Source of the DNA: Escherichia phage SP15 | Length of the DNA stretch: 64,000 nt | Direction: 5' to 3' (one strand) | Sequence record: AP019559 | Shown: positions 31,124 through 63,922 of the stretch, piece by piece | Position numbering within the stretch: the first letter of the stretch is position 1 | Layout of the letters: each line of letters begins with the position of its first letter | The notes under the pieces: model-generated | What the model saw: the letters and a program-made list of their open reading frames with translations, nothing else | Told to the model about the DNA's origin: nothing | Database searches by the model: none | Position numbers and translations under genes: made by a program

Positions 31124-31128
31124 GTATT

Positions 31129-34207: not shown

Positions 34208-34224
34208 CAGCAGCTCCTTCAATT

Positions 34225-34299: not shown

Positions 34300-34305
34300 A
34301 AATTT

Positions 34306-34382
34306 TGGCAAACCTACTAGGACTCGAACCTAGACCGTACGGTTTTGGAGACCGACATGCTGTCCAGTAACACTCTAGGAAT
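34306..34382 (-). tRNA. tRNA-Trp (CCA)
   Basis: Hand fold: loop CTCCAAA, perfect T-stem; acceptor has two U-U mismatches. Confidence 0.55.
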
Positions 34383-34390
34383 GCAGAAAT

Positions 34391-34467
34391 TGGCGTCCTG
34401 TGCGGGGATCGAACCCGCAAATCCTACCTTGAAAGGGTAGTGACTTTACCAGTTTGTCTAACAGGAC
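34391..34467 (-). tRNA. tRNA-Glu (TTC)
   Basis: Hand fold: all four stems perfect, loop CTTTCAA. Confidence 0.85.
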
Positions 34468-34474
34468 TTAAATT

Positions 34475-34565
34475 TGGTGTTGGATGATGGAGTCGAACCA
34501 CCCGAGACCCTTCCGAGTCGGCAGATTTACAGTCTGCTTCGCTACCTCTACGATACTAATCCAAC
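34475..34565 (-). tRNA. tRNA-Tyr (GTA), class II
   Basis: Hand fold: perfect acceptor GTTGGAT/ATCCAAC, anticodon arm GCAGA-CTGTAAA-TCTGC, long variable arm. Confidence 0.75.
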
Positions 34566-34630
34566 ATATTTAGAAGTATTCAAAAATTCTCATTTAAACA
34601 CTTTTAAATATGTTTTCAAATTAGGTAACT

Positions 34631-34687
34631 ATTATACCAAGTTTTAAGGCACTGAGCAAGTCAAATTTTAAAGAACTTGCTCAGTGC
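34631..34687 (-). promoter_or_regulatory. early promoter for the tRNA cluster overlapping a 13-bp perfect inverted repeat
   Basis: Minus strand TTGCTC, 17 nt, TATAAT (34631-34659); inverted repeat GCACTGAGCAAGT 34649-34661 / 34675-34687. Confidence 0.55.
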
Positions 34688-34695
34688 TATATTAG

Positions 34696-34971
34696 TTAGT
34701 CGAACTTAGGAGTGACAGTTAAGGAGAACGGAAGTTCGAAAACTTCTTCACCCTCATTACTAACGGTAACTACACGACCTTTAAGTTCAGACATTAAAAT
34801 ATCAATATCAGCTTTTGCATCTGGAGCCATACCAGCTTCAACACATTTAGCTTTAACTTCCGGCAGAAGTTCGACATCGTAGAAATAAAGCCATTCAATC
34901 TCACCTTCCCAGCCTTCCCAGGATTTACAGATTGCACTTTCAATACCAGTTGCTACAACACGATTTTGCAT
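34696..34971 (-). CDS. hypothetical acidic protein
   Basis: 91 aa. Confidence 0.5.
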   Translation of the reverse strand: MQNRVVATGIESAICKSWEGWEGEIEWLYFYDVELLPEVKAKCVEAGMAPDAKADIDILMSELKGRVVTVSNEGEEVFELPFSLTVTPKFD

Positions 34972-35061
34972 TCGTTAACTCCTTCATCAATTTATACAAC
35001 TATTATATCAGAAATTTAAAGCAAAAGGCAAGTACATTTTTAAAAATTCTGTTTGGAGGAG

Positions 35062-35268
35062 CTAAACTCCAGATTCTTCAGCTAAGTCTAGGCTAATAAG
35101 AGTTATAGCCATAATTGCTGCACCGTGTTCTTTTTCTCCGGTGTTTTTAGCAGAGTCTATAATAGTCTTAATCTGTTCGTAATAGCCTTTTACTTCTTGT
35201 TCAATACCTGCCTCGGCTATCATGCCTTTAGTCATGATTCGTTGCATAGTAATTTCACGGTTAGCCAT
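35062..35268 (-). CDS. hypothetical protein
   Basis: 68 aa. Confidence 0.5.
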   Translation of the reverse strand: MANREITMQRIMTKGMIAEAGIEQEVKGYYEQIKTIIDSAKNTGEKEHGAAIMAITLISLDLAEESGV

Positions 35269-35428
35269 GATGTTTCTCCAGCTTCATTTTTAATAGTTTA
35301 CAAATGAAATCAACGTCTTCATCTGTACCTAGATCTCTATCTTCAAGAGTTGCCTTGAAGTTTTTAGTCAATTCCATGAGGATAACTTCTCTAGAACGAC
35401 GTGTTGGCGGAGGTGGATGTCTATACAT
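35261..35428 (-). CDS. hypothetical small protein (55 aa, below ORF-track cutoff)
   Basis: ATG with AAGGAAATAAG RBS; 8-nt overlap with the downstream gene. Confidence 0.35.
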   Translation of the reverse strand: MYRHPPPPTRRSREVILMELTKNFKATLEDRDLGTDEDVDFICKLLKMKLEKHHG

Positions 35429-35443
35429 CTTATTTCCTTAGTT

Positions 35444-35520
35444 TGGTAGGGGTGGTGGGATTCGAACCCACAAAACCTGAATTTTAAGTCCAGTACCTAT
35501 GCCAATTCGATTACACCCCC
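35444..35520 (-). tRNA. tRNA with anticodon TAA (Leu by anticodon) but class I architecture
   Basis: Hand fold: good acceptor and T-stem, loop CTTAAAA, 5-nt variable loop, discriminator A. Confidence 0.55.
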
Positions 35521-35527
35521 GTGTAGT

Positions 35528-35716
35528 TTAGTCAATTACTTTTGAGGCTTCAAGGTAGTCGATATAGTGTATGTTTTCTACCGTAATCATATAATCTGTC
35601 ACTTTATCCATAGCTTGGGCTTCAGAGGTAGCTCTGGCTAACCTATATCCTTTTTTATATTCATCCGGGTATTCTCTATCTTGGATAAACACAACATAAA
35701 CTATATATAGATCCAT
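35528..35716 (-). CDS. hypothetical protein
   Basis: 62 aa. Confidence 0.5.
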   Translation of the reverse strand: MDLYIVYVVFIQDREYPDEYKKGYRLARATSEAQAMDKVTDYMITVENIHYIDYLEASKVID

Positions 35717-35735
35717 TTGTGACCTCTATTTAATT

Positions 35736-35813
35736 TGGTGGCTCCCCGAGGATTCGAACCTACGTACCTTCCGGTTATGAGCCGGGTGCTCATACCATAT
35801 GAGCTTGAGAACC
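35736..35813 (-). tRNA. tRNA, anticodon CAT (third copy)
   Basis: Hand fold: perfect D-stem GCTC/GAGC, loop CTCATAA; weak T-stem. Confidence 0.5.
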
Positions 35814-35819
35814 AGAATT

Positions 35820-35908
35820 TGGCGGAAGAAGCGGGAATCGAACCCACAAGGCTATATTTCAAACCGACAGATTAGCAATCTGCTGCAATACCGTTATGCT
35901 ATTCTTCC
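35820..35908 (-). tRNA. tRNA-Ser (GCT), class II
   Basis: Hand fold: perfect acceptor GGAAGAA/TTCTTCC, loop TTGCTAA, long variable arm. Confidence 0.75.
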
Positions 35909-35929
35909 GAATTTATAAGATATATTATA

Positions 35930-36448
35930 TTAGAAATTTAGCTTCATAGCAAGAAAATTTTTCAAGTTTTCGGTAGACATCTCATCCACATCTACGGGAG
36001 AAACAAAGCCGTTTAATTTTCTAGCAAATTTTTCACCCGCAGGATCATTATCTCCGACAGCTACCAATTTAAAAGGTAGTAATTTCAGTTGCTTTAATAA
36101 CGCTTTTCCTGGAGAAGAACCCAACATTGCTAGGGCTGGATAACCAGCATTATGTAACGCAACTGCCTTAAATACAGATTCAGCAATCAATACTACTTTT
36201 TCATCTCCATTGAGAGTTTCTAGTCCCCATACACACTGGGTAGTAGAATAAGTAAAGTATTTAGCTTCAAAGGGGCACTTACCATGACCTTTTGGAGCAG
36301 AAGGATTATAAGTTTGATAGCCCCTCAACATCCCAGAGAAGTCATACAACGGGACTGTTAGCCATCCTTCCGGACTTAACCAGCAATGATATTTATCTGT
36401 ATCAAATCCTCTAGATAAGAGGTGCTGTGTTAGCTCATCAACATTCAT
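35930..36448 (-). CDS. TOPRIM-domain protein (small primase or nuclease-like)
   Basis: Track ORF 35930..36499 trimmed to the ATG at 36448 (AAGAGGAA RBS); conserved Glu in 'LIAESVF' and 'VGDNDPAGE' DxD motif. Confidence 0.5.
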   Translation of the reverse strand: MNVDELTQHLLSRGFDTDKYHCWLSPEGWLTVPLYDFSGMLRGYQTYNPSAPKGHGKCPFEAKYFTYSTTQCVWGLETLNGDEKVVLIAESVFKAVALHNAGYPALAMLGSSPGKALLKQLKLLPFKLVAVGDNDPAGEKFARKLNGFVSPVDVDEMSTENLKNFLAMKLNF

Positions 36449-36623
36449 ATTTGGTTCCTCTTTCAAATTTATAGATATATTATACAGAGAATTTAGCATT
36501 CAAGCAATCAAATTTTTTAACTTTTTAGAGGAAAATCATAGGGCACTTAAGGATAGCAGATAAGTGGTGAGGACCAAAATTTGTGACCCCACTAAAAATT
36601 CAGGGGCAATTTTTAAAGACCCC

Positions 36624-36652
36624 TTGACATTTTCGCTGGGGTAGTGTAAAGT
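36624..36652 (+). promoter_or_regulatory. sigma70-type promoter for the plus-strand three-gene module
   Basis: Consensus TTGACA, 17-nt spacer, TAAAGT. Confidence 0.55.
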
Positions 36653-36713
36653 ATATGTTATGGATGAGTGATCAAAGAGACACACATTTTCTATATACTA
36701 GGAGGTGTCAAAA

Positions 36714-37697
36714 ATGACAGAAGAAGTAGCTAAGAGTCCTGAGACCGTCGCTAGCGTTGCAGCAGAACTGCACCGTCACGAGGAATCAGATAAGAAAAAG
36801 TGGGAGAAGGTCAGAGCCTACGAAGAAAAACATCGTGAACACGATGATGAAGAAGATGACGATGAACATTGTCATAAATATGGAAAACATAAAATGCAAG
36901 AACCAGTAAACGTATTTACTAGTGGCTTCCCTGGCCTACTGGGTGGTTACCCAGCAAACGCAGGTGCTTTCGGTGGTGAAGGTATGGGACTATTCGGAGC
37001 TATCCTAATCGGTGCTCTATTAACAGGCGGATTCGGTGGTTTCGGTGGATTCGGTGGACGTGGTGTAGTTGGTGATGGTACCGCAGTTGATGCAGTACTT
37101 CAGAACCAAGATACCGCTAGTATTCTAGCAGCTATTAACACTACTCGTACAGAAGCTAACCAGGGTACTGGAGCTGTTTTAAGCGCAGTTAACAATGGGT
37201 TTAGCCAGACATCCCAAAACCAGAGCCGTGATACTCAGTCTGTACTAACTACGATCTATGGTACAGGTGCTAATCTGTCTAATCAGATCTGTCAGGAAAC
37301 TCGCAACGTTATTCAGGGTCAGTTCGATCTTTCTCGCCAGATTGATCAATCTTTCGCAGCTAATCAGATAGCTCGTGCACAAGATAAGTTTGATTCTGCA
37401 CAGATCGCTTTCCAGCAGACTTTACAAACTAATAACCAGTTTGCCGCTGTTCAGGCTCAGATGTGTGCTAACCAGAACTCTCTGGAACGTCAGATCGCTG
37501 AATGTTGCTGTGAACTTCAGACTGCTATCGCTGGTGTAACTACTGCTCGTATTCAGGATGAGTTAGATGCATGTCGCCTACGTGAAGCAATCGCTGCGGG
37601 TAACGGTGCTAACGGTCAGGTAATTAATCAAATCGCTGTAAGTCTTGGTGCTATCACTCAGACTCTGGCTGGTCTGCAGGCTAAACTGCCGGCTTAA
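36714..37697 (+). CDS. glycine-zipper membrane protein with long Q/N/A/T-rich helical domain
   Basis: Track ORF starts at a GTG at 36705; ATG at 36714 has AGGAGG 8 nt upstream; 'GGFGGFGGFGG' hydrophobic Gly-rich segment; 'CCC' near the C-terminus; host-like codon usage. Confidence 0.6.
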   Translation: MTEEVAKSPETVASVAAELHRHEESDKKKWEKVRAYEEKHREHDDEEDDDEHCHKYGKHKMQEPVNVFTSGFPGLLGGYPANAGAFGGEGMGLFGAILIGALLTGGFGGFGGFGGRGVVGDGTAVDAVLQNQDTASILAAINTTRTEANQGTGAVLSAVNNGFSQTSQNQSRDTQSVLTTIYGTGANLSNQICQETRNVIQGQFDLSRQIDQSFAANQIARAQDKFDSAQIAFQQTLQTNNQFAAVQAQMCANQNSLERQIAECCCELQTAIAGVTTARIQDELDACRLREAIAAGNGANGQVINQIAVSLGAITQTLAGLQAKLPA

Positions 37698-37718
37698 TAT
37701 TAAGGGGAGGAGCCCATT

Positions 37719-38135
37719 ATGAGTAAATATGGTTTTGTAAATAACGGACTTAATCAAAGTATGGGCTCCCAGCAGCCCATTCCGGGTCTGGATAACCCCT
37801 ACTTACAACAATTGCAACAGCGTTTAGCAGAAGCGCAACAGATGCAACAACAACTCCAGCAAAACCCTGGAAGTGTGAGTCCTATGCAAATGATGCAGCA
37901 AATGAGCGGGCAGTCGCAAATGCCTCAACAAATGCAGCAACAGATGCCGCAGCAGCAAGTTCAGCAGCAAACCCAACAACCGCAGGTTTCTGCGGAAGGA
38001 CAGGCAGTACTAGCCCTTTTCGAAGACTTCACAAAGACAGAGGATGGGAAGCAGCTTGTATCACTTATGGGTAAGTTTAATAGCTTCTGCCAAAGCCAAG
38101 TTGCAAAAGCTCAAAATGGTGGTAATAACTCCTAA
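37719..38135 (+). CDS. Gln-rich low-complexity protein
   Basis: 138 aa with poly-Q/M stretch; RBS GGGGAGGAG. Confidence 0.55.
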   Translation: MSKYGFVNNGLNQSMGSQQPIPGLDNPYLQQLQQRLAEAQQMQQQLQQNPGSVSPMQMMQQMSGQSQMPQQMQQQMPQQQVQQQTQQPQVSAEGQAVLALFEDFTKTEDGKQLVSLMGKFNSFCQSQVAKAQNGGNNS

Positions 38136-38144
38136 GGAGAAATT

Positions 38145-38339
38145 ATGTGTTGCAGAAAACCTGTTTCGTGCTGCCCAATGCCTGTAGCACGTTGTTGCTC
38201 TCCAGCAATGTTTACACAAATACCGGCGTTCAATCCCTTTGCCTTTAAGCCTACTCTTATCCTGCCCCCTAGAGTAGATTTTCAGTCAAGATTGGCCTCC
38301 CGTATGGGTGGTTGCTGTACACCGAGAGTGTGGTTCTGA
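38145..38339 (+). CDS. Cys-doublet-rich small protein
   Basis: 64 aa with four CC doublets; RBS AAGGAGA. Confidence 0.5.
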   Translation: MCCRKPVSCCPMPVARCCSPAMFTQIPAFNPFAFKPTLILPPRVDFQSRLASRMGGCCTPRVWF

Positions 38340-38354
38340 AGAACCAAACAATAA

Positions 38355-38390
38355 AGCCCCTAGTCGAAAGACTTAGGGGCTTTTCTGTAT
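38355..38390 (+). terminator. Rho-independent terminator
   Basis: 11-bp stem with one bulge around a GAAA loop, followed by TTTTCTGTATTT. Confidence 0.65.
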
Positions 38391-38394
38391 TTAA

Positions 38395-38436
38395 GATAAA
38401 AGAAAAGCCCTGCGCTCTCCAGGGAACGCAGGGCTT
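38395..38436 (-). terminator. Rho-independent terminator for the SPFH gene
   Basis: 10-bp stem AAGCCCTGCG/CGCAGGGCTT; on the minus strand followed by TTTTCTTTT. Confidence 0.65.
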
Positions 38437-38459
38437 ACTTCAGATGTTACATGCGGATA

Positions 38460-39407
38460 TTATTTATTACGCATATCCATGATCATTTGACCATCGTAGC
38501 CAGTACCTACCACAGTCTGTGGTACACCACCTTGATATTTCTGAGCACGAATCATTTCGACTTCCAGTTGTTTCCAACGAATCATCTCAGGAGTAATGGT
38601 ACGTTGCAGTGCGGCGTTAGCTTCAGCTTCTTTCTTAGCTGCGTACAGTTTAGCATCTGCGTCACGTTCATTAGCGATAGCTTGGTTGTTGCGAGCTTCA
38701 CGATCTGCTTCTGCTTGTTTAACTTTTTGCTGTGCTTCCTGTTCAACACGAGCTAATTCAGCTTTAGCAGCATTAACCTGTTCTTCACGAACTTTGGTAT
38801 TCTGTACCTGTTCCATGATTACCGGTGGCAAAGTAATATCCTGAAGGAATACCTGCTTAACTGTGTAACCATATGGGCGTGCATACTCTTCAACTTCCTG
38901 TTGAATTGCAGTTTGCAATTGAGCCTGAATTTTAGCATCAAACAAATCTTGTGCTTTAGGTACAGACTTACCAAACTCACGAATAGTAGACAGTAATTTT
39001 TCAGTTACATATTTGTCTAACGCTTGATCCTGAGTACCTGCGTTAATACGGTTAATTGGTGCCTTAGAACCATCAAACTGCAACATAACAGTCAGGTCAA
39101 CAGTGGATTTAAACTTATCCTGGCTAGGAACCTGAAGTTTATCTAATTTTACAGCAATATCTTTTGTACTAAAAGTGTCGAAAGATGCAAATGGGTTTAC
39201 AAGATGGAAACCTGGTAATACTGGGTTAGGATCTACTTTACCCAGAAATGTTTGGGTTTTAACCGTACCATCAGAAACAATAGTATATGAATTAAAGGCT
39301 AGAATCAAGCCTGCTAAACCAACTACAGCACCAATACCCCAACGTTTAATAGTACGAATTACTTTCTGCTCAGAAGTCAGTTCTTTCATATTTTTAGTAT
39401 TAAACAT
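38460..39407 (-). CDS. SPFH/band-7 (stomatin/prohibitin/HflK-C-like) membrane protein
   Basis: N-terminal transmembrane helix, central SPFH-like region, C-terminal A/E/Q-rich coiled-coil; host-like codon usage. Confidence 0.7.
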   Translation of the reverse strand: MFNTKNMKELTSEQKVIRTIKRWGIGAVVGLAGLILAFNSYTIVSDGTVKTQTFLGKVDPNPVLPGFHLVNPFASFDTFSTKDIAVKLDKLQVPSQDKFKSTVDLTVMLQFDGSKAPINRINAGTQDQALDKYVTEKLLSTIREFGKSVPKAQDLFDAKIQAQLQTAIQQEVEEYARPYGYTVKQVFLQDITLPPVIMEQVQNTKVREEQVNAAKAELARVEQEAQQKVKQAEADREARNNQAIANERDADAKLYAAKKEAEANAALQRTITPEMIRWKQLEVEMIRAQKYQGGVPQTVVGTGYDGQMIMDMRNK

Positions 39408-39441
39408 ATATTTCCTTTGTTTTAGTTACAGTTAATAAAAT

Positions 39442-39516
39442 TGGCCGAGGTGACAGGATTCGAACCTGCATAAAGGAATTTAGAAGACTCCTGCCTCTCC
39501 CTTAGACTACACCCCG
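39442..39516 (-). tRNA. tRNA-Arg (TCT)
   Basis: Hand fold: acceptor CGGGGTG/CACCTCG, loop CTTCTAA, discriminator G; isolated from the main cluster. Confidence 0.7.
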
Positions 39517-55259: not shown

Positions 55260-55449
55260 GGGTTTAAACGCCGCTTTGGAAAACGCATTAATGCAGCACT
55301 GGGAAACTGGCTATAAGGATGGTGTTGAATCCTGCGCTACTATGCTAGAAGTTATTGCTAATACCTTAATGGAGAAAGGCAATAAAGAATTAGCTGAGCT
55401 ATTAGACAGTATTGGGCAAAACTTCAGAGAACAGGTGAAAAATGCGTAG
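55228..55449 (+). CDS. hypothetical protein
   Basis: 73 aa; start may be the internal ATG at 55246. Confidence 0.45.
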   Translation: MAFSKPMLPDKGLNAALENALMQHWETGYKDGVESCATMLEVIANTLMEKGNKELAELLDSIGQNFREQVKNA

Positions 55450-56260
55450 ATTAATTATTATTAGCGGTGCAGGTTTGAGTGTTGAAAGTGGTGTACGAGC
55501 TTTTCGTACTGATACTGCTAGTGGTAAAGCATTGTGGGATGATTATGATCTAGAAGAAGTATGTAATATTCATGCCTTTCGTGGTAATTTTTATCATAAA
55601 ACCCATATGTTTTACAACAAGCGTCGTGAAGAGCTAAAAACTGTTGAACCTAATCTTGCTCATTTGCGTATTGGTGAGTGGTATAAACAATATCCAGGTC
55701 AAGTAGTAAACTTGACTACCAACGTTGATGACCTTATTGAGCGTGCTGGCGTTCCACATAGTGACATTCTGCACATTCATGGGTACTTAAAAGAGGTTGT
55801 TGTGGCTGATAGTCACAATAGTAGTAATAAACGAGTTATTGATGTAGGATACAATTCTATTGATCCAGATGACTATAAATGGGTTAAACCTAATGTAATC
55901 TTCTTTGGGGAGCATGCTCCAGCATATGCAGAAATGTACAATATTTTTGATGGTATTACCAATCAAGATATGATCATTGTGGTTGGTTGCTCTAACCAAG
56001 TAATTAACTTCTACTGGGAATTATTTCCTATTCTTAACCGTACTGCTGCCAAGCTAATGGTAGTTAACTACTATGATAGTGCCCTAGCGGCAGAACCAGG
56101 CTATCAAGGTATGACTCGTAGTGAGATGTACCAGCTGGAAGAACGCGGTATCCCTTACTGGAGTAAAGGGGCTGTAGATGCCTTCAGTGATCCTGATTTT
56201 ATTGCTCGTGTAGAAGCTCATCTAGAGGGTAGACCTTATGTGTCAGGAAGTAAGAAATAA
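55442..56260 (+). CDS. Sir2-family NAD-dependent deacetylase / ADP-ribosyltransferase-like protein
   Basis: 'ISGAGLSVESGVRAFR' (GAGxSxxxG...FR), 'TTNVDDLIERAG', 'HIHG' Sir2 blocks. Confidence 0.7.
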   Translation: MRRLIIISGAGLSVESGVRAFRTDTASGKALWDDYDLEEVCNIHAFRGNFYHKTHMFYNKRREELKTVEPNLAHLRIGEWYKQYPGQVVNLTTNVDDLIERAGVPHSDILHIHGYLKEVVVADSHNSSNKRVIDVGYNSIDPDDYKWVKPNVIFFGEHAPAYAEMYNIFDGITNQDMIIVVGCSNQVINFYWELFPILNRTAAKLMVVNYYDSALAAEPGYQGMTRSEMYQLEERGIPYWSKGAVDAFSDPDFIARVEAHLEGRPYVSGSKK

Positions 56261-57091: not shown

Positions 57092-57520
57092 ATGTTCAAT
57101 AATGTGTTCTCTAAAGAAGCTAACCCAATATTAGTTAATTTTTGGCGTACTCTTCCAGCCAACCTGTACAATGAGGCTATTAATGCTCTGAAAATATGGT
57201 GTGAGAATAATGAAATCTCCTTTGCTTTTAAAGGCGAGGTTGAAGAGGCTCCCTGTATTGGTTTAATTGTGCAGGTGGAGGATGGTCTTGAAGAGATTGT
57301 CGGCTGGAAAGAGTTGGATGAAATGGGCTTGGTTTTTGCGTTAAACTATAAGCTGTTTATGCCCAATAAACACCGTATTGTTGTTAACTATAAAACCAAT
57401 GAATCTCCTGGTTTTCAAGTTAATGAACGGTATGGTTGGTCTTACTCACCGGAAGAGGTAAATGATGGTATCCAGAAACTTCGTCGTTTTGGTTATCAAA
57501 TTCCGGGTTTAACTGCCTAA
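57092..57520 (+). CDS. hypothetical protein, tandem paralog A
   Basis: 142 aa; shares 'PCIG', 'MGL.ALN..LF.P', 'IPGL' with the next ORF. Confidence 0.5.
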   Translation: MFNNVFSKEANPILVNFWRTLPANLYNEAINALKIWCENNEISFAFKGEVEEAPCIGLIVQVEDGLEEIVGWKELDEMGLVFALNYKLFMPNKHRIVVNYKTNESPGFQVNERYGWSYSPEEVNDGIQKLRRFGYQIPGLTA

Positions 57521-57529: not shown

Positions 57530-57922
57530 ATGGAACAAGTATATTGGCGTCAGATCGACCCTAGTTTGGTGAAGCGTGCAGAGAAGCTGCTACAACGTTG
57601 GTTGGGGGTAAGACAAGCCTCCTTCACTTTTCCGGAGCAGCAAATAGACGATCCCTGTATTGGTGTTTTCCTATCAGGCTACGCTAGGGAATGGGAATTG
57701 GATTGGAATGAATTGTCTGCTATGGGTTTAATTGTTGCACTAAATTTCTCTTTGTTCCATCCACGTGGTTTGGCCATATGTCGTGTGCCTGAGGACGGTT
57801 GTTCGCCCCATCTTTTACAGGTGGAAGATGATATTTGGGAGTACACTCCAGATATTCTCAAAGAAGCCAAAGAACAATTAAACCGTGTTGGAATTTATAT
57901 TCCAGGCCTGAATGATGAATGA
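57530..57922 (+). CDS. hypothetical protein, tandem paralog B
   Basis: 130 aa; same motif set. Confidence 0.5.
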   Translation: MEQVYWRQIDPSLVKRAEKLLQRWLGVRQASFTFPEQQIDDPCIGVFLSGYAREWELDWNELSAMGLIVALNFSLFHPRGLAICRVPEDGCSPHLLQVEDDIWEYTPDILKEAKEQLNRVGIYIPGLNDE

Positions 57923-58061
57923 TTTTTATTGGTTGACCTCTATAATCCGGGCTATTAGTGCTCGGATTATTGCCTAATCTTTCCAGCTAATTGACAGCAT
58001 GAATAAATTGTCATTGACAAATTGAATAGATTATGTAATAATATGTGTATTGGAGGTAAAG

Positions 58062-58514
58062 ATGTCGCTCACACAACAAGAACTTTTAGATAATTTCCGA
58101 TATGAAGATGGAAAATTATTTAGAACCACAGGAAGAAATGCAGGCAAGGAATGTTGTGTTTCAACGGGAAATGGGTATTATCGTATTTCTCTAGGTAGTA
58201 AAACTATGCTCCGACACAGAGCCATCTTCTTAATGCATCATGGTTATCTCCCTGATTTAGTAGATCATGAGAATACTATAAAAGGTGATGATCGTATTGA
58301 AAATCTTAGAGAGCAGACAGTATCCGGTAATCTAAGAAATATCAAATATAAGAAAGGAATGCATGTTTACCCTTCTGGTAGTAAGAACTGGCAAGTAGTA
58401 TTTACTATTAACCGTAAACGTATAGTTAAAGGAACATATGACAACTATGAGGTTGCATGTTCTATGGCCAAGATGTTTAGAGGTCAATTATACGGTAGGG
58501 AATCAATCCAGTAA
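58062..58514 (+). CDS. HNH homing endonuclease
   Basis: Track ORF starts at a TTG at 58050; ATG at 58062 has GGAGGT upstream; 'VDHENTIKGDDRIENLRE'. Confidence 0.65.
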   Translation: MSLTQQELLDNFRYEDGKLFRTTGRNAGKECCVSTGNGYYRISLGSKTMLRHRAIFLMHHGYLPDLVDHENTIKGDDRIENLREQTVSGNLRNIKYKKGMHVYPSGSKNWQVVFTINRKRIVKGTYDNYEVACSMAKMFRGQLYGRESIQ

Positions 58515-58522
58515 AATTTCAT

Positions 58523-58552
58523 TTGCAAGGGAGTATTATTTTATAGTATAAT
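58523..58552 (+). promoter_or_regulatory. candidate sigma70-type promoter preceding a ~480-nt leader
   Basis: TTGCAA, 18-nt spacer, TATAAT. Confidence 0.4.
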
Positions 58553-59049
58553 ATTCCCATAAATGAGAGATATTAGTAAAAATTGATTTTGCTAATTTTT
58601 CTTGTTTACAATCCGCGATACGGAACAGTTAGGCTGCCCCATTAAGGGTTGTTTTAACTGTTACGTGTTAGTTTTTAAGCAAATAATTAATAGAATACTT
58701 AGCGATCTGCGTCCCGTAGGAACCCTGGTAAGGCCTCGAAGCAACCTAGATAGAGGTGGTTGTGAAGTGAGACGGGAGGAGTGAAAAACTCCGAGACGTG
58801 ATTCTGTAAGTTATATTGCATCTAGTATGAGCTAGTATATGAAGCATTAGGTGAGCAAATCTGGCTTAGCGGCCATCCTCAAGGATTTGTGCGGTATAGC
58901 AAAGCAGCAGCGCAGCGTGAAAGTGGAAGTTGCCACCCCACTTCAGTATTTGCGATTAATTTGTTGAGAAATTGACAGTAACAGTTGTTCTATTCTTTCT
59001 GAATAGTCCTAAAGAAAACTTATTTCATTTCCAACACAGGAGTATTGTT

Positions 59050-61839
59050 GTGTTTTCAATCCTACAAGGTCATGCAGGATTTCATCGCGATTTAGCCACA
59101 GGCAATTGGCGAGAAGTTAAGGCAGAAGATTATCTTTTTGCTAAAAGATTTTCCTCAAAGCATCCCGAAGGTAAACCAGCTTCAATGCCCTTCAAGTTTG
59201 ATGTAATTGATGAAGTTGATCCTCAAACCCTAGTAGAAATGCTTCCTCTTATGAGACGTTTAACGTCTGACCCTCATATCGTTGCGGTACGAGGTCGATG
59301 TCTTGCACCTAAAAATAATGTGCGACGTAAGAAGGGCAACTTTAATGTATCTAATCCAAGTCATATAATCGCAATGGATGTGGATGGTATTGTAGATACA
59401 GGAGGTTGTAACAAGTTTGATCTTGTTGGCATGGCGCGTCATATTATTAGGATGTTGAATAGTATTAGTGAGGATATGTTTCCTCTTGATGCAGGGTTTA
59501 TTGCTCATGCATCATCTTCGGCTGGCCTAAAACCAGGTATCCGAATGCACTTAATACTAGAATCTAATGTTAAAGTTACACAGGGTCAGATCAAGTTCTT
59601 ATTTACATCTATCAACGAAAGTAGTAGACAAAAGTATGGCTTTGATATTGCCGACTTAGCTTATTACTCTTCCGTACAGCTCCACTATTTTGCAGATCCT
59701 TTATTTACTGATGGTATAGTTGATCCGTTTAAAGCGGAGGGTGCTTCACGTCTGGTATTTGTTAAAGGCTCAAAAGTAAATTTACCTAATAATCTAGTTG
59801 ACTATGAAACAACTAGAGGAGAGTTTAAAGAGGAATTCTACTCTTTACTCGATCAAATTAAAGGTAAAAAAGCCGCCTCCGATAAAGTAGAGGAAACTAT
59901 CAGCGAACTAGAAGAAGCTGAGGATGGAGTGTATCTACGTATTATTCCTAAACTCTATCACAGGGCTTTAGAGGATGGTGTTGATTTTGCATGGCTAGAA
60001 AAAGAAATCCGCCCAGCCTTATCAGAGTATATTGCAACTAAAGATAATAGTCGTAATATTCAAGATTATTTTAACAACGGTAGAAAACAGGCTCTGAAAG
60101 CGTTTGTTAATAATTCTAAACGTGATATACCGGATGTTTTAAAAGGTATTCCACTTAAAAAGCTAGAAACTAACTCTCTAGAGACTGATAACTTCTTGAA
60201 ATTAAATACTGTACCACCAGAAGGTTATATGACTTTTGTAAAAGCAAGTCTAGGTACAGGTAAAACTACGGCGGTTGTGCGTTGGTTAGATTCAGGAGTT
60301 ATTAAGGGTAATTTCTTAGCAATTACCAATACTCGAGCACTGGTATCTTCAAATGCTAAGAAATTTAGTGCAGGACAATATGATAAGTCTGTAGATATGC
60401 TTAATTTTAAGCGTGGCGCTATTGACCGTATGTCCACAACTATACATTCTTTGCATAAGTTCAAGAGTTTTATTGGTCAAATCGATGCAATCTTTATCGA
60501 TGAATGTGACGCTGTAATGAATGACCTATTATTCGCCCCGGTTGTTAAACAACGTCGTGAATGTATTCAGGTTCTTCGGGATATTCTTGCAACTGCAAAA
60601 ATCATTATATTATCTGATGGTGATATTAGTGCTGAAACAATTGAAGCATATGGTTCTTTGATTGAGTTTGATAAACCGGTTGCATTTTATAATCATCACC
60701 GTAAGATGCTGTCAAAAGCTCATGCTTATGAGTTCCCTGATGAATCTAGTATTTGGGTTGCACTTCAGACCTCTCTAGAGATGGGTGAGAAATCTATTCT
60801 GGTATCTGATTGTGGGCCGGATGAGCTGAATGAGAAAGGTATGGCACTGCGTCGTAATACGGGTGCGTTAGTTAAGGAAATCCATTCAAACTCTACCTCA
60901 GATGTGGATATTAGACGTATTCTGGATTACACAACTAATGAACTAATTGATCAACAAATTGATTGTTTATTATGTAGTCCATCCGTAACGAGTGGTGTTG
61001 ACTTTAACTATTTTGATAACGTATTTGTTATTACTAGAACTAGTAATCAAGCGCCAAACATGCGTTTCCAAGCAATCAGGCGCGACCGTGGTGCTCAGAA
61101 TATCTATTATTTTATTGATAAATCCACTAGTGGATTCTCCGCAGGTTCTGAACAATATAATATTGATGAGGGTTGGCTGGAGTTAGCACAGCAATTATAC
61201 GCACGTCGCAGGGAGCTGGAATCTAGGAACTATACTAGTACTTTACGTTATTACTTACTTGATCAGGGTGCAACTATTGATATTTTCAGTGAAAGCTGGG
61301 GAACTATTGAAGGTGCTGGTAAAGAGTATACAGAAGAGCGAATCAAAGCTATTCTGCACTCAACTCCTGATTATTGTGCTCCACGTCATGCGGATGCGTA
61401 TGAAGCTAAACTACTTCTTGTTCGCTATTATCATCTGGAGTCTATTAAAGATGTAACCGTTGAGCATGTTGAACAATATATCAAAGATAAGCCGAATGAT
61501 CGAGCTGCATTCTTCCATAAGATGCATGAGATGTTCTGGGAAGATATTAAGAAGTGTTCAAATGTCACTATCAAACCTTTCATAGAAGCTCTGAAAGGTA
61601 AGAAGAAAGATTTCTTCCTTAAAACAGGTCAGAGTGCTAACCCAAAATATGCTAGAATGTATCTTGGTATGATGGGTATTGGTAAAGATATGAACACGGA
61701 GAATATCGTAGACTGGTACAGAACCTATTGTAAAATCGAGTGTATGCCAATTCCTTTCAAATTCATGACAGAGGAAGAACGTCAGATGCACGAGGAAGCA
61801 ATGTCAGAGCTAGGTGCTAGAAATGACAGTGAAGAATAA
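59050..61839 (+). CDS. primase-helicase-like protein (AEP-type primase/polymerase-like N-terminus fused to P-loop NTPase)
   Basis: Track ORF starts at 58972; GTG at 59050 has AGGAG 7 nt upstream; 'IIAMDVDG' DxD motif, Walker A 'GTGKTT', Walker B 'IFIDECD'. Confidence 0.55.
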   Translation: MFSILQGHAGFHRDLATGNWREVKAEDYLFAKRFSSKHPEGKPASMPFKFDVIDEVDPQTLVEMLPLMRRLTSDPHIVAVRGRCLAPKNNVRRKKGNFNVSNPSHIIAMDVDGIVDTGGCNKFDLVGMARHIIRMLNSISEDMFPLDAGFIAHASSSAGLKPGIRMHLILESNVKVTQGQIKFLFTSINESSRQKYGFDIADLAYYSSVQLHYFADPLFTDGIVDPFKAEGASRLVFVKGSKVNLPNNLVDYETTRGEFKEEFYSLLDQIKGKKAASDKVEETISELEEAEDGVYLRIIPKLYHRALEDGVDFAWLEKEIRPALSEYIATKDNSRNIQDYFNNGRKQALKAFVNNSKRDIPDVLKGIPLKKLETNSLETDNFLKLNTVPPEGYMTFVKASLGTGKTTAVVRWLDSGVIKGNFLAITNTRALVSSNAKKFSAGQYDKSVDMLNFKRGAIDRMSTTIHSLHKFKSFIGQIDAIFIDECDAVMNDLLFAPVVKQRRECIQVLRDILATAKIIILSDGDISAETIEAYGSLIEFDKPVAFYNHHRKMLSKAHAYEFPDESSIWVALQTSLEMGEKSILVSDCGPDELNEKGMALRRNTGALVKEIHSNSTSDVDIRRILDYTTNELIDQQIDCLLCSPSVTSGVDFNYFDNVFVITRTSNQAPNMRFQAIRRDRGAQNIYYFIDKSTSGFSAGSEQYNIDEGWLELAQQLYARRRELESRNYTSTLRYYLLDQGATIDIFSESWGTIEGAGKEYTEERIKAILHSTPDYCAPRHADAYEAKLLLVRYYHLESIKDVTVEHVEQYIKDKPNDRAAFFHKMHEMFWEDIKKCSNVTIKPFIEALKGKKKDFFLKTGQSANPKYARMYLGMMGIGKDMNTENIVDWYRTYCKIECMPIPFKFMTEEERQMHEEAMSELGARNDSEE

Positions 61840-62056
61840 AAAATGGGAAACAAGGAAGTTTCCAGTAAAAGAACGCAAAGTTCCTGTTTATGATACTTCG
61901 GAGAAGCTATGTAGGGTGGTACCGCATAGATTAGCTGGTATCCCTAACATATCCGAGTGGTTACTTAAACAACGGAGGACTAACGTATCTCTTCGCGTAG
62001 GGTTTGAGTTAGATAAAGTATATGCTGAACTTTCTTCTTTGCTCAAAGAATCATAA
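61823..62056 (+). CDS. hypothetical basic protein
   Basis: Track ORF 61814..62056 trimmed to the ATG at 61823. Confidence 0.45.
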   Translation: MTVKNKKWETRKFPVKERKVPVYDTSEKLCRVVPHRLAGIPNISEWLLKQRRTNVSLRVGFELDKVYAELSSLLKES

Positions 62057-62065
62057 AAAATTTAT

Positions 62066-62094
62066 TTGCTTTCAGGAAAAATTTTCTGTATAAT
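62066..62094 (+). promoter_or_regulatory. T5 early promoter, P_N25-like
   Basis: TCATAAAAAATTTATTTGCTTTCAGGAAAAATTTTCTGTATAATAGATTCATAAATTTGAGAGAGGAG matches my recollection of the classic T5 P_N25 promoter; TTGCTT, 17 nt, TATAAT. Confidence 0.8.
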
Positions 62095-62125
62095 AGATTC
62101 ATAAATTTGAGAGAGGAGTTTAAAT

Positions 62126-62830
62126 ATGGCTGGTTCTCGCAGAAAGAAACATATCCATGAAATCCCGGATGAAGTCTTTAAAAAAGTTATAGAGCACCTG
62201 GAGAACGGTGGTACTAAGAAAGCAGCATGTGAAATGCTCGGCGTATCATCCAATCCAACTATGGAAAGGATGATAGAAGAGTGGCAAGACCGGCAGATCC
62301 AAGTTGCCGAGATGAAGAAAAAGAAACGCGGTACACTCATTGAAGGCATTGAGTTGGCCAACGTTATTGAACAGTATCTATCTGGTGATTCCTTTGAGGA
62401 GATTGCCGATCGTAATTATCGTTCTGTAGCAATGGTTAAATCTGTTCTGGAACGCTATGGTGCTCTGCTTCGTTTGAACGATATTGTAGATCCATTGAAC
62501 CCACCAATTATTCCTGATGATGCTGTAGCAGAAGAATTTGAGGTAGGTGAGCTTGTTTGGGTTCCTGGATACCAGTGTATCGGTGAAATCAAAAAAGCAA
62601 TGGATAACCCTGTCGGTTGTTACCGTGTATGGCTTCTATCAGAAGGCAAACAACAGAACGTTCATTATATGAATTACGAGCTGGCTTCTGTTAAACATCT
62701 GGAAAAGTTAGGGGTTGATGTAAAGTCTCTGGGGTACAAATGGTCCCGGGAAGAAGTTATCACACTGATTAACGAAGCTGTTAAGGCTGCCCTGAAACTT
62801 GATAAAGAAAAAGGTAAACGTCGTGAGTAG
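62126..62830 (+). CDS. helix-turn-helix DNA-binding protein
   Basis: N-terminal 'GGTKKAACEMLGVSSNPTMERMIEEW' HTH-like segment. Confidence 0.55.
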   Translation: MAGSRRKKHIHEIPDEVFKKVIEHLENGGTKKAACEMLGVSSNPTMERMIEEWQDRQIQVAEMKKKKRGTLIEGIELANVIEQYLSGDSFEEIADRNYRSVAMVKSVLERYGALLRLNDIVDPLNPPIIPDDAVAEEFEVGELVWVPGYQCIGEIKKAMDNPVGCYRVWLLSEGKQQNVHYMNYELASVKHLEKLGVDVKSLGYKWSREEVITLINEAVKAALKLDKEKGKRRE

Positions 62831-63074: not shown

Positions 63075-63177
63075 CTACTTAAAAATTTCAGTTGCTTAAT
63101 CCTATAATTCTTGATATAATATTCTCATAGTTTGAAAGAACTATTCTGTTTAATTCTTAATTAAGGAAATATAAAAT

Positions 63178-63588
63178 ATGACTACTCCAACTCAGTGGAC
63201 TGATGAACTGTTTGAAAAAATGTCTTCCGAATATGTTGCTCGTATGGAGCAATTCCCAGAGGATGAACGTCCGGGTGTTAGCATGGAAATTGTTAGCGAA
63301 ATTGCCCAGGAAAATGGTGTAACTCCGAACGGTTTTCGTATGAAGCTGACTAAAGCAGGTTTGTATATCAAGAAAGCTGCTGGTTCTACTTCGAAATCTA
63401 GCGCATCTACTGGAGAAAAAGCTTCCGGTGGTTCTCGTACCTCCAAAGCTCAAGCCCATGCCGACCTTCGTTCAGCTTTCTCTGATGCTGGCTTAGCACC
63501 AGATTTTCTGGATGATGCAATTATCGACAAACTGACCGGTAAAGCGGCTGCTCATCTGGCAGAAGCAATCCGAGCTATCACTAAGTAA
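63178..63588 (+). CDS. hypothetical protein
   Basis: 136 aa; RBS AAGGAAA. Confidence 0.55.
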   Translation: MTTPTQWTDELFEKMSSEYVARMEQFPEDERPGVSMEIVSEIAQENGVTPNGFRMKLTKAGLYIKKAAGSTSKSSASTGEKASGGSRTSKAQAHADLRSAFSDAGLAPDFLDDAIIDKLTGKAAAHLAEAIRAITK

Positions 63589-63625
63589 TATTTAGATAAA
63601 TCCACCAACAAAAGGAACTATAGCT

Positions 63626-63922
63626 ATGACTAAAGCTGAAATTATTGCACAGTGCGAAAAATTTGGTGAGTTTTATCTTCATTACGAGAAACTTCGTCAG
63701 AAAGGAACCACGTACCTTCAGGGTACAATGGAATTTGATCCAGCCCAAGATAAATATCTGGCTGAGCGTATTAAACGTGAACGTATTCGTAAAGCGAAAG
63801 ATGATGAAATCCTTGTCTTCTCTCGTACTAATGATAGCTTCCGTTTTATTCCTGTCGAGAAAGTTCGTCGTGTGACTAGCCTCCAATCAGAGTTAGATCG
63901 TGCTTCTCCAGTAGGCCGATAA
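63626..63922 (+). CDS. hypothetical protein
   Basis: 98 aa; RBS AAAGGAA. Confidence 0.55.
   Translation: MTKAEIIAQCEKFGEFYLHYEKLRQKGTTYLQGTMEFDPAQDKYLAERIKRERIRKAKDDEILVFSRTNDSFRFIPVEKVRRVTSLQSELDRASPVGR

What the first reader, a model, noticed from the sequence alone, without database searches (positions are those of the whole stretch)
58515..59049. Long structured leader between an HNH endonuclease gene and the primase-helicase-like gene
About 480 nt separate a candidate promoter (58523-58552) from the GTG start at 59050. The region has hairpins (ACAGTTA/TAACTGT, GGAGT/ACTCC) and no convincing ORF; the only track ORF here (58602..58784) looks spurious. It may be a regulatory leader or an intron/homing-site remnant linked to the adjacent HNH gene.
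Basis: seen in the sequence. Interest (0 to 1): 0.45.

Follow-up and report, generated by a model that had tools for sequence, protein, structure and literature searches.

The report
Large conserved structured leader RNA, T5-like phages
The ~490-base untranslated stretch in front of the phage's essential replication helicase gene (T5 D2) folds into a large, evolutionarily conserved RNA structure found in T5-like phages, matching no catalogued RNA family and not found in the papers searched; its function is unknown.

Summary
The window is a T5-like phage. A sigma-70 early promoter (58523-58552) is followed by ~490 nt with no conserved ORF, up to the GTG start (59050) of the origin-binding/D2 helicase gene. 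That start is fixed by 50 related loci and by the published D2 construct.

The leader is more than a few hairpins. It holds a 5' hairpin, an almost invariant small hairpin (P0), and a ~330-nt domain. That domain has a ~250-nt multi-branched head (P2-P6) on a stalk of about 36 predicted pairs formed by its two ends.

Covariation is strong: 69 of 91 pairs show changes on both sides, and 91.6% of cells pair against 72% in shuffles. A model built from one sequence type finds the very divergent T5/Eps7 type full-length (E~1e-24). G.U pairs (210 against 36 A.C) point to the + strand RNA.

Every relative has an ORF-free gap here, with or without the HNH gene. The full RNA was found in most lineages, once per genome, and in no bacterial genome by motif scan. 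There is no Rfam match.

It is therefore not an intron or homing remnant. The HNH gene is a separate mobile cassette inserted upstream.

Function is inferred only. Most likely the leader controls D2 expression in cis, possibly through RNase III cutting of the stalk.

The parts
58062..58514 (+). Free-standing HNH endonuclease gene. It is not part of the RNA. It belongs to a facultative cassette of about 57923-58565 inserted between the upstream gene and the leader.
   Evidence: Pfam HNH_3, E = 1e-10. The gene is absent at this site in chee24, Gostya9, Eps7 and T5, and present in S132, AKFV33 and Shivani.
58523..58552 (+). Sigma-70 (T5 early-type) promoter of the leader and D2 transcription unit. 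The inferred transcription start is near 58559.
   Evidence: Scan match TTGCAA-18-TATAAT, 10/12. Promoter annotations exist at the same place in AKFV33 and T5. A TTGC..TATAAT promoter is conserved in the Klebsiella, Pectobacterium, Serratia and Providencia relatives. The transcription start site itself is an inference.
58560..58608 (+). SL1: a long hairpin near the 5' end of the transcript.
   Evidence: Predicted in the MFE. It is predicted independently in window, Eps7, L045, My1, FZ41 and AAS21 with different stem sequences, for example GAGAGA/UUUUCU against GAGAG/CUCUC.
58619..58641 (+). P0: a small hairpin (GG-AA-CAGU-UAG-GCUG-CC-CC). It is the most conserved stretch of the whole leader and lies outside the stalk.
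   Evidence: About two-thirds of the 33 columns invariant across 18 distinct sequences lie here. One A-U to G-C compensatory change occurs in AAS21. A motif scan finds it once per T5-like genome.
58655..58697 (+). 5' strand of the P1/P1b/P1c stalk.
   Evidence: It pairs with 58947-58987. A naive complementarity search found the stalk separately in each lineage, with unrelated sequences. There are 28-36 inter-arm pairs in nearly every lineage and 21 in Klebsiella FZ41. Helices 2-4 are 90-94% paired, and 17 of 25 pairs show double changes.
58702..58918 (+). Head of the domain. It is closed by P2 (58702-12 with 58910-18; conserved GAUCUGCGU pairs with AGCGCAGC). Inside lie: P3, a three-way junction (58713-58776; P3a 58724-33, P3b 58741-63); P4, a hairpin (58778-92); and P5, a three-way junction (58810-58900; P5a 58819-53, P5b 58855-90).
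   Evidence: RNAalifold on a MAFFT-only alignment gave 91 pairs, 50 with compensatory change. P2, P3 and P3b are 98-100% paired, and P5, P5b and P6 are 91-98% paired, with changes on both sides at most pairs.
58863..58874 (+). Tip of P5b: GGCU-UAGC-GGCC, containing the near-universal octamer CUUAGCGG.
   Evidence: In every locus that has it, the octamer occurs once and only on the + strand, at -170 to -185 from the D2 start. It also occurs in Providencia PR1 (-285) and Proteus Stubb (-410). It is always capped by stems of different sequence.
58922..58942 (+). P6 hairpin, between the 3' strand of P2 and the stalk.
   Evidence: Helix 15 is 97.8% paired, and all 5 pairs show changes on both sides. 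The T5/Eps7 type differs from the window type at 4 of the 5 pairs.
58947..58987 (+). 3' strand of the P1c/P1b/P1 stalk.
58990..59006 (+). Small hairpin CUAUUC-UUUCU-GAAUAG between the stalk and the ribosome-binding site. It has no U-tract, so it is not an intrinsic terminator.
   Evidence: Read directly from the sequence. Equivalent hairpins with different sequences occur in L045 (CUUUCC/GGAAAG), AAS21 (ACUAU/AUAGU) and FZ41 (CUAUC/GAUAG). No + strand terminator-like site lies in 58515-59049.
59032..59050 (+). Ribosome-binding region. CAACA/UGUUG forms a stem with the Shine-Dalgarno AGGAG (59038-42) in the loop. The stem ends on the G of the GTG start.
   Evidence: Read from the sequences. The FZ41 equivalent, AACAU/AUGUU, accompanies an ATG start. 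This is my own reading; RNAalifold did not call it in the consensus.
59050..61839 (+). Replication origin-binding protein / D2 bipolar SF2 helicase gene, the gene served by the leader.
   Evidence: Pfam Herpes_ori_bp above its cut-off. PHROG 3712 'replication origin binding', E = 1e-203. PDB herpesvirus origin-binding proteins, E ~ 2e-5. The T5 D2 ORF uses the same start codon, and D2 amber mutants show no net DNA synthesis (PMC3632103).

Best explanation
SHOWN. The region is the 5' untranslated leader of the D2 (origin-binding helicase) transcription unit of a T5-like phage. It encodes a large structured RNA that is conserved in secondary structure, read from the + strand.

Anatomy, from 5' to 3':
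- promoter;
- SL1, a hairpin near the 5' end;
- P0, an almost invariant small hairpin;
- a ~330-nt domain whose two ends pair into a stalk of about 36 predicted pairs (28-36 across nearly all lineages, 21 in FZ41), carrying a ~250-nt multi-branched head (P2 closing P3, P4 and P5; P6 beside it);
- a small hairpin;
- a hairpin that presents the Shine-Dalgarno sequence and ends on the GTG start codon.

No intrinsic terminator separates the RNA from D2, so both should be made as one transcript.

INFERRED (not shown). The RNA acts in cis on D2 expression.
- SL1 and the compact fold would protect a long untranslated RNA from 5'-end-dependent decay and from Rho.
- The stalk has the length and form of an RNase III substrate. 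Cutting it would detach the head and leave a D2 mRNA with a new 5' end about 60-100 nt before the start codon, depending on where the stalk is cut. That would set the stability or translation of the mRNA for the essential replication helicase.
- The invariant P0 and the UAGC-capped P5b tip are the best candidates for contacts with a protein (possibly D2 itself) or for tertiary contacts.
For: Context:
- The window is a T5-like phage.
- The downstream gene is D2/origin-binding protein.
- An ORF-free gap of 433-886 nt lies upstream of this gene in all 50 related loci, with no conserved ORF.
- A terminator and a promoter are annotated just upstream in T5, and nothing is annotated in the 472 nt before the gene.

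Structure:
- RNAalifold on a MAFFT-only alignment gave 91 pairs, 50 compensatory. Against controls, 0/500 shuffles reached the observed values, and slid versions paired 36-47% against 92%.
- Model R1, built only from the window-type sequences, finds T5, Eps7, Yersinia R201 (E ~ 1e-24 to 1e-28) and Klebsiella FZ41 (2e-16) full-length.
- On that 20-sequence alignment, 91.6% of cells pair and 69 of 91 pairs show double changes.
- The stalk was found independently in each lineage, with unrelated sequences.

Strand and transcript:
- 210 G.U cells against 36 A.C cells.
- No + strand terminator in the leader.
- Element length (355-379 nt) and its distance to the start codon (~56-63 nt) are conserved.

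Specificity:
- One copy per genome, confined to T5-like contigs.
Against: - No expression, processing or mutational data were available, so every functional step is inference.
- A 370-nt ornate fold with invariant loops is far more than known cis stabilisers or RNase III sites need. That favours a more specific, still unknown activity.
- No alternative (switch) pairing is conserved. The ACAGUUA/UAACUGU alternative exists only in the E. coli/Salmonella phages and is weakened in Eps7. There is no terminator-based expression platform. Classic riboswitch or attenuator logic is therefore not visible.
- The covariation counts come from an alignment fitted to the model. This is mitigated.
- The model did not detect the Serratia, Proteus, Providencia or Vibrio relatives.
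Confidence: 0.5

Rival explanations
1. The head-plus-stalk is a gene for a stable non-coding RNA in its own right. It would be made as part of the D2 leader, excised through the stalk (as rRNAs are cut out of their precursors), and would then act in trans. Possible roles are a protein scaffold, a decoy against host defence, or a ribozyme-like RNA.
For: - Its size and ornateness (15 helices, two three-way junctions) and its invariant loop and junction nucleotides.
- A long stalk made from the two flanks (28-36 predicted pairs in nearly all lineages), the classic architecture of precursors of stable RNAs.
- The head is only 28-56% identical between this phage and T5, while the flanks are 75-98% identical. 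Length and pairing are nevertheless kept. The fold rather than the sequence appears to be selected.
Against: - It is always located directly upstream of D2, at a fixed distance from the start codon. It has no promoter or terminator of its own that would make it an independent gene.
- It resembles no known stable RNA class.
- There is no evidence of accumulation.
Confidence: 0.25
2. The region is, or overlaps, a replication origin used by D2. The promoter would make a structured pre-primer RNA, as in ColE1 RNA II or T4 oriF/oriG R-loops, or D2 would bind the conserved DNA here.
For: - It lies directly upstream of the gene for a UL9-like origin-binding helicase, and origins often sit next to their initiator genes (general knowledge).
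- A strong conserved promoter is followed by ~490 nt of structured RNA, the same scale as ColE1 RNA II (general knowledge).
- In T5 the locus lies at 58.9-59.5 kb of 121.75 kb. From memory, Bourguignon et al. 1976 described internal origins; that paper could not be read.
Against: - What is conserved is base pairing through compensatory change and G.U pairs on one strand, not DNA boxes. The AACAGTT repeats are not conserved as sequence.
- No iterons or repeat families are present, and the GC-skew profile across the region shows no sign change.
- Recombitron editing of T5 showed a uniform strand preference, which its authors interpreted as dominant unidirectional replication from one genome end (PMC10055335).
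- No conserved antisense regulator is evident.
Confidence: 0.12
3. It is a passive structured spacer. A long untranslated region is kept compact only to avoid Rho termination and RNase E attack, with no specific regulatory or biochemical role.
For: - A 5' terminal hairpin is typical of stabilised mRNAs.
- The fold is very stable (z = -3.75).
- No switch or terminator is present.
Against: - A passive spacer would not be expected to keep the same 15-helix architecture, the same length (355-379 nt), and the invariant P0 and CUUAGCGG tip across phage genera whose D2 N-terminal region is only 52-74% identical in protein.
- Simply deleting the region would serve the same purpose, yet no relative has done so.
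Confidence: 0.1
4. It is a remnant of a group I or group II intron, or the homing site of the adjacent HNH endonuclease. A further minor possibility is that it encodes a small protein (58602-58784).
For: An HNH gene lies immediately upstream. A 60-codon ORF exists in this window.
Against: - No intron model matches at E<=10.
- The RNA is present with or without the HNH gene.
- It interrupts no gene.
- The ORF is not conserved, and all frames are full of stops in relatives.
Confidence: 0.02

Closest known systems
RNase III processing stalks (E. coli rRNA operon stalks around 16S/23S; lambda N-leader site; T7 early-mRNA R sites)
   Same: A duplex formed by sequences that flank a structured RNA (28-36 predicted pairs in nearly all lineages), placed in a leader transcribed by host RNA polymerase. 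Cutting it would yield a separate structured RNA and a downstream mRNA with a new 5' end.
   Different: Cleavage has not been shown. T7 and lambda sites are simple ~60-nt hairpins without a 250-nt conserved head. rRNA stalks enclose rRNA, not a leader element.
ColE1 RNA II pre-primer and T4 oriF/oriG R-loop origins
   Same: A promoter followed by several hundred nucleotides of structured RNA, next to replication functions. The fold of the RNA could decide its fate.
   Different: There is no evidence of an origin, of a persistent RNA-DNA hybrid, or of an antisense RNA I. Conservation here spans a phage family and lies in pairing rather than sequence. Published T5 editing data argue against a dominant central origin.
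Large ornate bacterial and phage ncRNAs (GOLLD, ROOL, OLE, HEARO, raiA)
   Same: Size class (>300 nt), many covarying helices, occurrence in phages (GOLLD, ROOL) and unknown biochemistry.
   Different: None of their Rfam models matches. This RNA is a co-transcribed leader of one specific gene, confined to T5-like phages, and is not associated with the tRNA cluster.
Riboswitch and T-box leaders, and protein-binding translational operators (T4 gene 32 and gene 43 leaders)
   Same: A cis-located, conserved, structured 5' leader in front of a replication gene, with a Shine-Dalgarno sequence held in a hairpin.
   Different: It is two to ten times larger. It has no terminator/antiterminator and no conserved alternative pairing. 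No known aptamer model matches, and no ligand or protein partner is known.
Leader-derived regulatory RNAs of phages P4 (CI RNA) and P1/P7 (c4 RNA)
   Same: An RNA processed from the leader of an operon that encodes replication or antirepressor functions, and which controls that same operon (general knowledge).
   Different: Those are RNAs of ~80 nt with a tRNA-like fold, processed by RNase P, that act by pairing with repeated target sequences. No such repeats or tRNA-like fold are present here.

Membership tests
Group I intron | Match to the conserved catalytic core (Rfam RF00028 covariance model) | tested here: not met
   No hit at the gathering score in the 64-kb window. No hit at E<=10 in 57900-59300, in the T5 leader or in the My1 leader.
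Group I intron | Interrupts a host gene, with exons on both sides | tested here: not met
   The element is intergenic. The upstream gene ends with a terminator, and the D2 start is intact and conserved.
Group II intron | Match to the domain V/VI or full intron covariance models | tested here: not met
   No hit.
Known riboswitch / T-box / ribosomal-leader classes (Rfam 15) | Match to an aptamer or leader covariance model | tested here: not met
   No cis-regulatory family matched at E<=10, apart from chance fragments of 13 bits or less.
Known riboswitch / T-box / ribosomal-leader classes (Rfam 15) | Expression platform: an intrinsic terminator or a conserved alternative pairing | tested here: not met
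   No + strand terminator-like site lies in 58515-59049. The only alternative pairing (58620-31 with 58655-66) is not conserved outside close relatives.
Large ornate ncRNAs (GOLLD, ROOL, OLE, HEARO, raiA) | Match to the family covariance model | tested here: not met
   No hit.
RNase III processing stalk | About 20 bp or more of near-continuous dsRNA formed by the flanks of the processed RNA | tested here: met
   28-36 inter-arm base pairs in nearly every lineage and 21 in Klebsiella FZ41, with unrelated sequences.
RNase III processing stalk | Cleavage by RNase III in vivo or in vitro | not testable with these tools
   Needs Northern blots or 5'-end mapping in rnc+ and rnc- hosts, or an in vitro cleavage assay.
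ColE1 RNA II-type pre-primer / R-loop origin | The replication origin lies at the end of the transcript, with a persistent RNA-DNA hybrid | not testable with these tools
   The T5 origin is unmapped at sequence level. Published strand-bias data argue against a dominant central origin.
ColE1 RNA II-type pre-primer / R-loop origin | Antisense regulator RNA with its own promoter inside the leader | tested here: inconclusive
   No promoter-like site on the - strand lies inside the leader itself; the nearest are at its upstream edge, facing away, and in the D2 coding region. Total promoter-like sites are at the number expected by chance (6 found, 5.6 expected).
T5 early (sigma-70) promoter | TTGCTT-N17-18-TATAATA-like hexamers, conserved in relatives | tested here: met
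   TTGCAA-18-TATAAT. The equivalent site is annotated in AKFV33 and T5 and conserved across genera.
Free-standing HNH homing endonuclease cassette (the neighbour, not the RNA) | HNH domain, plus presence/absence polymorphism at one site among close relatives | tested here: met
   HNH_3, E = 1e-10. The cassette is present in the window, S132, AKFV33 and Shivani, and absent in chee24, Gostya9, Eps7 and T5.

The most novel reading that the evidence does not exclude
This is a previously unrecognised class of large (~370 nt) ornate phage RNA with a specific biochemical activity of its own, such as a ribozyme, a ligand or protein sensor, or an RNA component of replication initiation working with the D2 helicase. 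It would be conserved across Demerecviridae that infect Enterobacterales, in the classic model phage T5.
Probability: 0.3. Interest if true: 0.85.

Novelty: new variant of a known kind. Interest (0 to 1): 0.66.

Why it matters
Well-supported structured RNA classes longer than 300 nt are few, and most of those with known functions are ribozymes or core machinery. This one sits in T5, a textbook phage, directly in front of the essential helicase that is thought to start its DNA replication. That process is still poorly understood.

The RNA gives a concrete handle that can be mutated. It could be used to ask how D2 synthesis, and possibly replication initiation, is controlled. It could also be used to ask why the fold is kept while the sequence of its head has diverged to 28-56% identity between otherwise close phages.

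It also corrects annotations. Several deposited genomes call small ORFs, or extend the D2 gene, across this RNA.

Tried and rejected
- Rfam at the gathering score on the whole window, and at E<=10 on three versions of the leader: only chance fragments.
- tRNA/tmRNA search: nothing in the leader.
- Repeat and iteron search: only the stalk arms and one weak 25-nt direct repeat.
- The TTG 58972 start and the small ORFs: rejected by comparison with relatives.
- A possible second promoter, TTGATT-18-TACAAT at 58583-58612: not conserved outside the E. coli/Salmonella phages by eye, so left open.
- A switch between 58620-31:58655-66 and the stalk: not conserved.
- A tertiary pairing GGCUGC (58634-39) with GCGGCC (58869-74): dropped, because the GGCU-UAGC-GGCC tip hairpin has the better covariation.
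- Scan for extra covarying helices or pseudoknots: nothing convincing with 18 sequences.
- Model R1 with filters off on the Serratia, Proteus, Providencia and Vibrio loci: no significant hit. The Vibrio D252 gap shows no excess folding (z = -0.5).
- MAFFT Q-INS-i was not installed.
- Literature searches: nothing on an RNA here. Bourguignon 1976 is not held. The Rad/anti-retron paper is unrelated.
- AlphaFold of the D2 N-terminal 390 aa without an alignment: unusable, pLDDT 35.

Full report
**What the window is**

The region matches several hundred T5-like phages (Demerecviridae) at 80-99% identity. The window also holds the typical cluster of 23 tRNA genes.

The large gene at 59050-61839 is the 'replication origin binding protein':
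- Pfam Herpes_ori_bp above its cut-off.
- PHROG 3712, E = 1e-203.
- Herpesvirus origin-binding protein structures in the PDB, E ~ 2e-5.

It is the protein characterised as the T5 D2 bipolar helicase. Amber mutants of D2 make no DNA. The published expression construct begins at the same codon, with primer GTGTTTTCTATCCTCCAAGG (PMC3632103).

The gene at 58062-58514 carries an HNH_3 domain.

**Checking the observation**

- The promoter TTGCAA-18-TATAAT at 58523-58552 is found by the scan. The equivalent site is annotated as a promoter in AKFV33 and in T5 itself.
- The GTG at 59050 is the true start. In 50 related loci the protein begins MFSILQG behind an AGGAG ribosome-binding site. The start codon varies among GTG, ATG and TTG, and nothing upstream is conserved in frame.
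- All six frames of the gap are full of stops in 15 diverse relatives. The region is non-coding.
- Its predicted folding energy is 3.75 standard deviations below that of dinucleotide shuffles.

**The gap is a family-wide feature and is independent of the HNH gene**

Every related locus examined has an ORF-free gap of 433-886 nt in front of this gene. These loci are:
- E. coli and Salmonella Tequintavirus and Epseptimavirus;
- Yersinia phiR201, Pantoea AAS21 and Klebsiella FZ41 (Sugarlandvirus);
- Pectobacterium My1 (Myunavirus), Serratia Kamaji, Proteus Stubb and Providencia PR1;
- several IMG/VR contigs.

Relatives without the HNH gene keep the gap (chee24, Gostya9, Eps7, T5).

In T5 a terminator and a promoter are annotated just after the upstream gene. 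The following 472 nt are blank.

The HNH gene belongs to a cassette of about 57923-58565. The cassette replaces the terminator-promoter segment and carries its own version of the leader promoter. It occurs in phages with either sequence type of the leader.

**Structure**

Alignment of the gaps showed conserved blocks separated by segments that differ almost completely between two sequence types:
- A-type: this window, chee24, Gostya9, AAS21, L045 and My1.
- B-type: T5, Eps7, AKFV33, Shivani and R201. FZ41 is closer to B.

The element nevertheless has nearly the same length everywhere, 355-379 nt.

A plain search for complementarity, run on each lineage separately, found that the segment after the conserved 5' block pairs with the segment about 60 nt before the start codon. 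The sequences differ between lineages:

| Lineage | 5' strand | 3' strand |
|---|---|---|
| window | UAACUGUUAC | GUAACAGUUG |
| Eps7 | UAACUAUUACUA | UAGUAAUAGUUG |
| AAS21 | GCUACUACUUGUUAU | GUAAUAAGUAGUGGC |
| L045 | GAUUAUUAUACAG | CUGUAUAAUAAUU |
| My1 | GGUUAUUAUAUAACUU | AGGUUAUAUAAUAACC |

When the two arms are folded against each other, they form 28-36 base pairs in nearly every lineage, and 21 in Klebsiella FZ41.

RNAalifold on a MAFFT-only alignment of seven A-type sequences predicted 91 pairs, and 50 of them carry compensatory changes. The conserved blocks GAUCUGCGU and AGCGCAGC turn out to pair with each other (P2). Against controls, no shuffle in 500 reached the observed values, and sliding the partners dropped pairing from 92% to 36-47%.

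**Out-of-sample test**

A covariance model built from those seven sequences (R1) found the following, all full-length:
- all B-type leaders, including T5, at 77-92 bits (E ~ 1e-24 to 1e-28);
- Klebsiella FZ41 at 55 bits (E = 2e-16).

None of these was in the seed.

On the resulting 20-sequence alignment:
- 91.6% of cells pair, against 72% in shuffles and 33-48% when the partners are slid;
- 69 of 91 pairs show changes on both sides;
- helices P1, P1b, P1c, P2, P3, P5, P5b and P6 are kept by B-type sequences using different nucleotides.

The inner helices of the P3 three-way junction and P4 did not align for B-type sequences; P5a aligned only in part (76% paired). By eye, B-type has helices at the same places. 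This alignment is fitted to the model, which favours pairing.

**Strand and molecule**

Paired cells include 210 G.U against 36 A.C. The complementary strand would therefore carry about 14% mismatches. What is conserved is pairing, not DNA sequence boxes. The AACAGTT copies in this window are not conserved as sequence in relatives.

This points to an RNA read from the + strand, the strand of the genes and the promoter. No intrinsic terminator lies between the promoter and D2.

**Anatomy in window coordinates**

| Part | Coordinates |
|---|---|
| SL1 | 58560-58608 |
| P0 | 58619-58641 |
| Stalk | 58655-58697 with 58947-58987 |
| P2 | 58702-12 with 58910-18 |
| P3 junction | 58713-58776 |
| P4 | 58778-92 |
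| P5 junction | 58810-58900 |
| P5b tip GGCU-UAGC-GGCC | 58863-74 |
| P6 | 58922-42 |
| Small hairpin | 58990-59006 |
| SD hairpin | 59032-59050 |

P0 holds about two-thirds of the 33 columns that are invariant across 18 distinct sequences.

The octamer CUUAGCGG occurs once in each locus that has it, only on the + strand, at -170 to -185 from the start. It also occurs in Providencia PR1 (-285) and Proteus Stubb (-410). It is always capped by stems of different sequence. It is absent from Serratia Kamaji and the Vibrio phages.

**Distribution**

- The 23-nt P0 motif occurs once per genome in 32 IMG/VR contigs, all T5-like genomes of roughly 96-123 kb.
- Eight metagenome contigs carry the full RNA.
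- The six motif matches in 185,579 bacterial and archaeal genomes are chance matches without the RNA.
- R1 finds one copy in the 64-kb window.
- R1 did not detect the Serratia, Proteus, Providencia or Vibrio loci.

**Comparison with what is known**

No Rfam 15 family matches any of three versions of the leader, even at E<=10. This excludes, as far as covariance models can:
- group I and group II introns;
- RNase P and tmRNA;
- known riboswitches and T-boxes;
- GOLLD, ROOL, OLE, HEARO and raiA.

Full-text searches found no description of an RNA here.

**How it probably works (inference)**

The element is co-transcribed with D2 and sits at a fixed distance from its ribosome-binding site. No relative has lost the long untranslated gap. 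I therefore think the most likely role is cis control of D2 mRNA stability or translation.

The long, near-continuous stalk made from the two flanks is what RNase III substrates look like. Cutting it would separate the head from the D2 mRNA.

The ornate head, the invariant P0 and the UAGC tip suggest a specific partner. That is why a stable trans-acting or catalytic RNA remains a serious rival.

An origin or pre-primer role is attractive because of the neighbouring origin-binding helicase. It is weakened by three points:
- conservation lies in pairing, not in DNA sequence;
- no iterons are present;
- T5 recombitron data were interpreted as unidirectional replication from one genome end (PMC10055335).

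**An additional observation**

Between this phage and T5, the head (58673-58968) is only 28-56% identical. P0 is 93% identical and the D2 gene 75-98%. Even so, length and pairing are kept.

Either two old alleles of the head circulate by recombination, or its sequence is under pressure to change while the fold is held.

**Verdict**

- The 'regulatory leader' reading is supported and enlarged.
- The 'intron/homing remnant' reading is rejected.
- The element is a new RNA family of unknown function in a classic phage. Its kind (a large structured leader or non-coding RNA) is known.

Noticed in passing
window 58673-58968, compared with T5 (L129): The head of the RNA is only 28-56% identical to T5, while P0 is 93% and the D2 gene 75-98% identical. 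Length and base pairing are still preserved. Two sequence types of the head (A and B) are distributed across phages. The A-type head of this E. coli/Salmonella phage is closer to those of the distant Pantoea and Pectobacterium phages than to T5.
   Followed up: partly
window 57923-58565; L001 (Shivani), L002 (AKFV33), L008 (S132): The HNH gene sits in a cassette that replaces the usual terminator-promoter segment and brings its own promoter for the leader (TTGCAAGGGAGTATTATTTTATAGTATAAT). The same cassette occurs in front of both A-type and B-type leaders. In Shivani, the cassette copy of the first ~50 nt of the leader and the original promoter are both present.
   Followed up: partly
L004 (Gostya9) about 1694-1790; also L009, L016, L025, L038: A ~96-nt insertion lies in the leader between SL1 and P0. 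It is flanked by the direct repeat TTTTTCTT and contains the inverted repeat ATTTACGG/CCGTAAAT. It occurs in a minority of phages with either head type (columns 207-302). It could be a small mobile element or an extra RNA module.
   Followed up: partly
window 58516-58540 and 59022-59046: A 25-nt direct repeat, 76% identical: ATTTCATTTGCAAGGGAGTATTATT against ATTTCATTTCCAACACAGGAGTATT. The first copy lies just after the HNH stop codon and the second just before the D2 start. It may be chance, or a trace of how the cassette was assembled.
   Followed up: no
window 59050-60219 (D2 residues 1-390): The N-terminal 390 residues match no Pfam family. The motifs IIAMDVDG and SSSAGLKPGIRMH resemble the DxD and sxH motifs of archaeo-eukaryotic primase-polymerases; this is from memory and untested. 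A single-sequence AlphaFold model was unusable (pLDDT 35).
   Followed up: partly
L129 (T5 RefSeq NC_005859) 59545-62331 and 63122-63826: RefSeq labels T5.111, of which only the first 705 nt were seen and whose product is given as 'helicase', as gene D2. The biochemical D2 paper cloned the origin-binding-protein ORF, T5.108. This is an inconsistency in annotation naming.
   Followed up: yes
L003 (chee24), L007 (AAS21), L015 (Vibrio D252) and several hits: Deposited annotations disagree over the leader. Some call the D2 gene from an internal start, some extend 'DNA primase C' or 'origin binding protein' across the RNA, and some place 30-56-codon 'hypothetical proteins' on it.
   Followed up: no
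L047 (Proteus phage Stubb) about 1436-1465: A perfect TTGACA-18-TATAAT promoter lies about 35 nt upstream of the D2 start, inside the 3' end of that phage's 820-nt gap. The homologous TTGACA in this window (58972-77) has no -10 element.
   Followed up: no
window 28525-39516, - strand: A cluster of 23 tRNA genes, typical of T5-like phages.
   Followed up: no
window 57092-57520 and 57530-57922; 55442-56260: Two adjacent paralogous DUF7415 genes and a Sir2-family gene lie upstream of the leader. The same order is kept in relatives.
   Followed up: no
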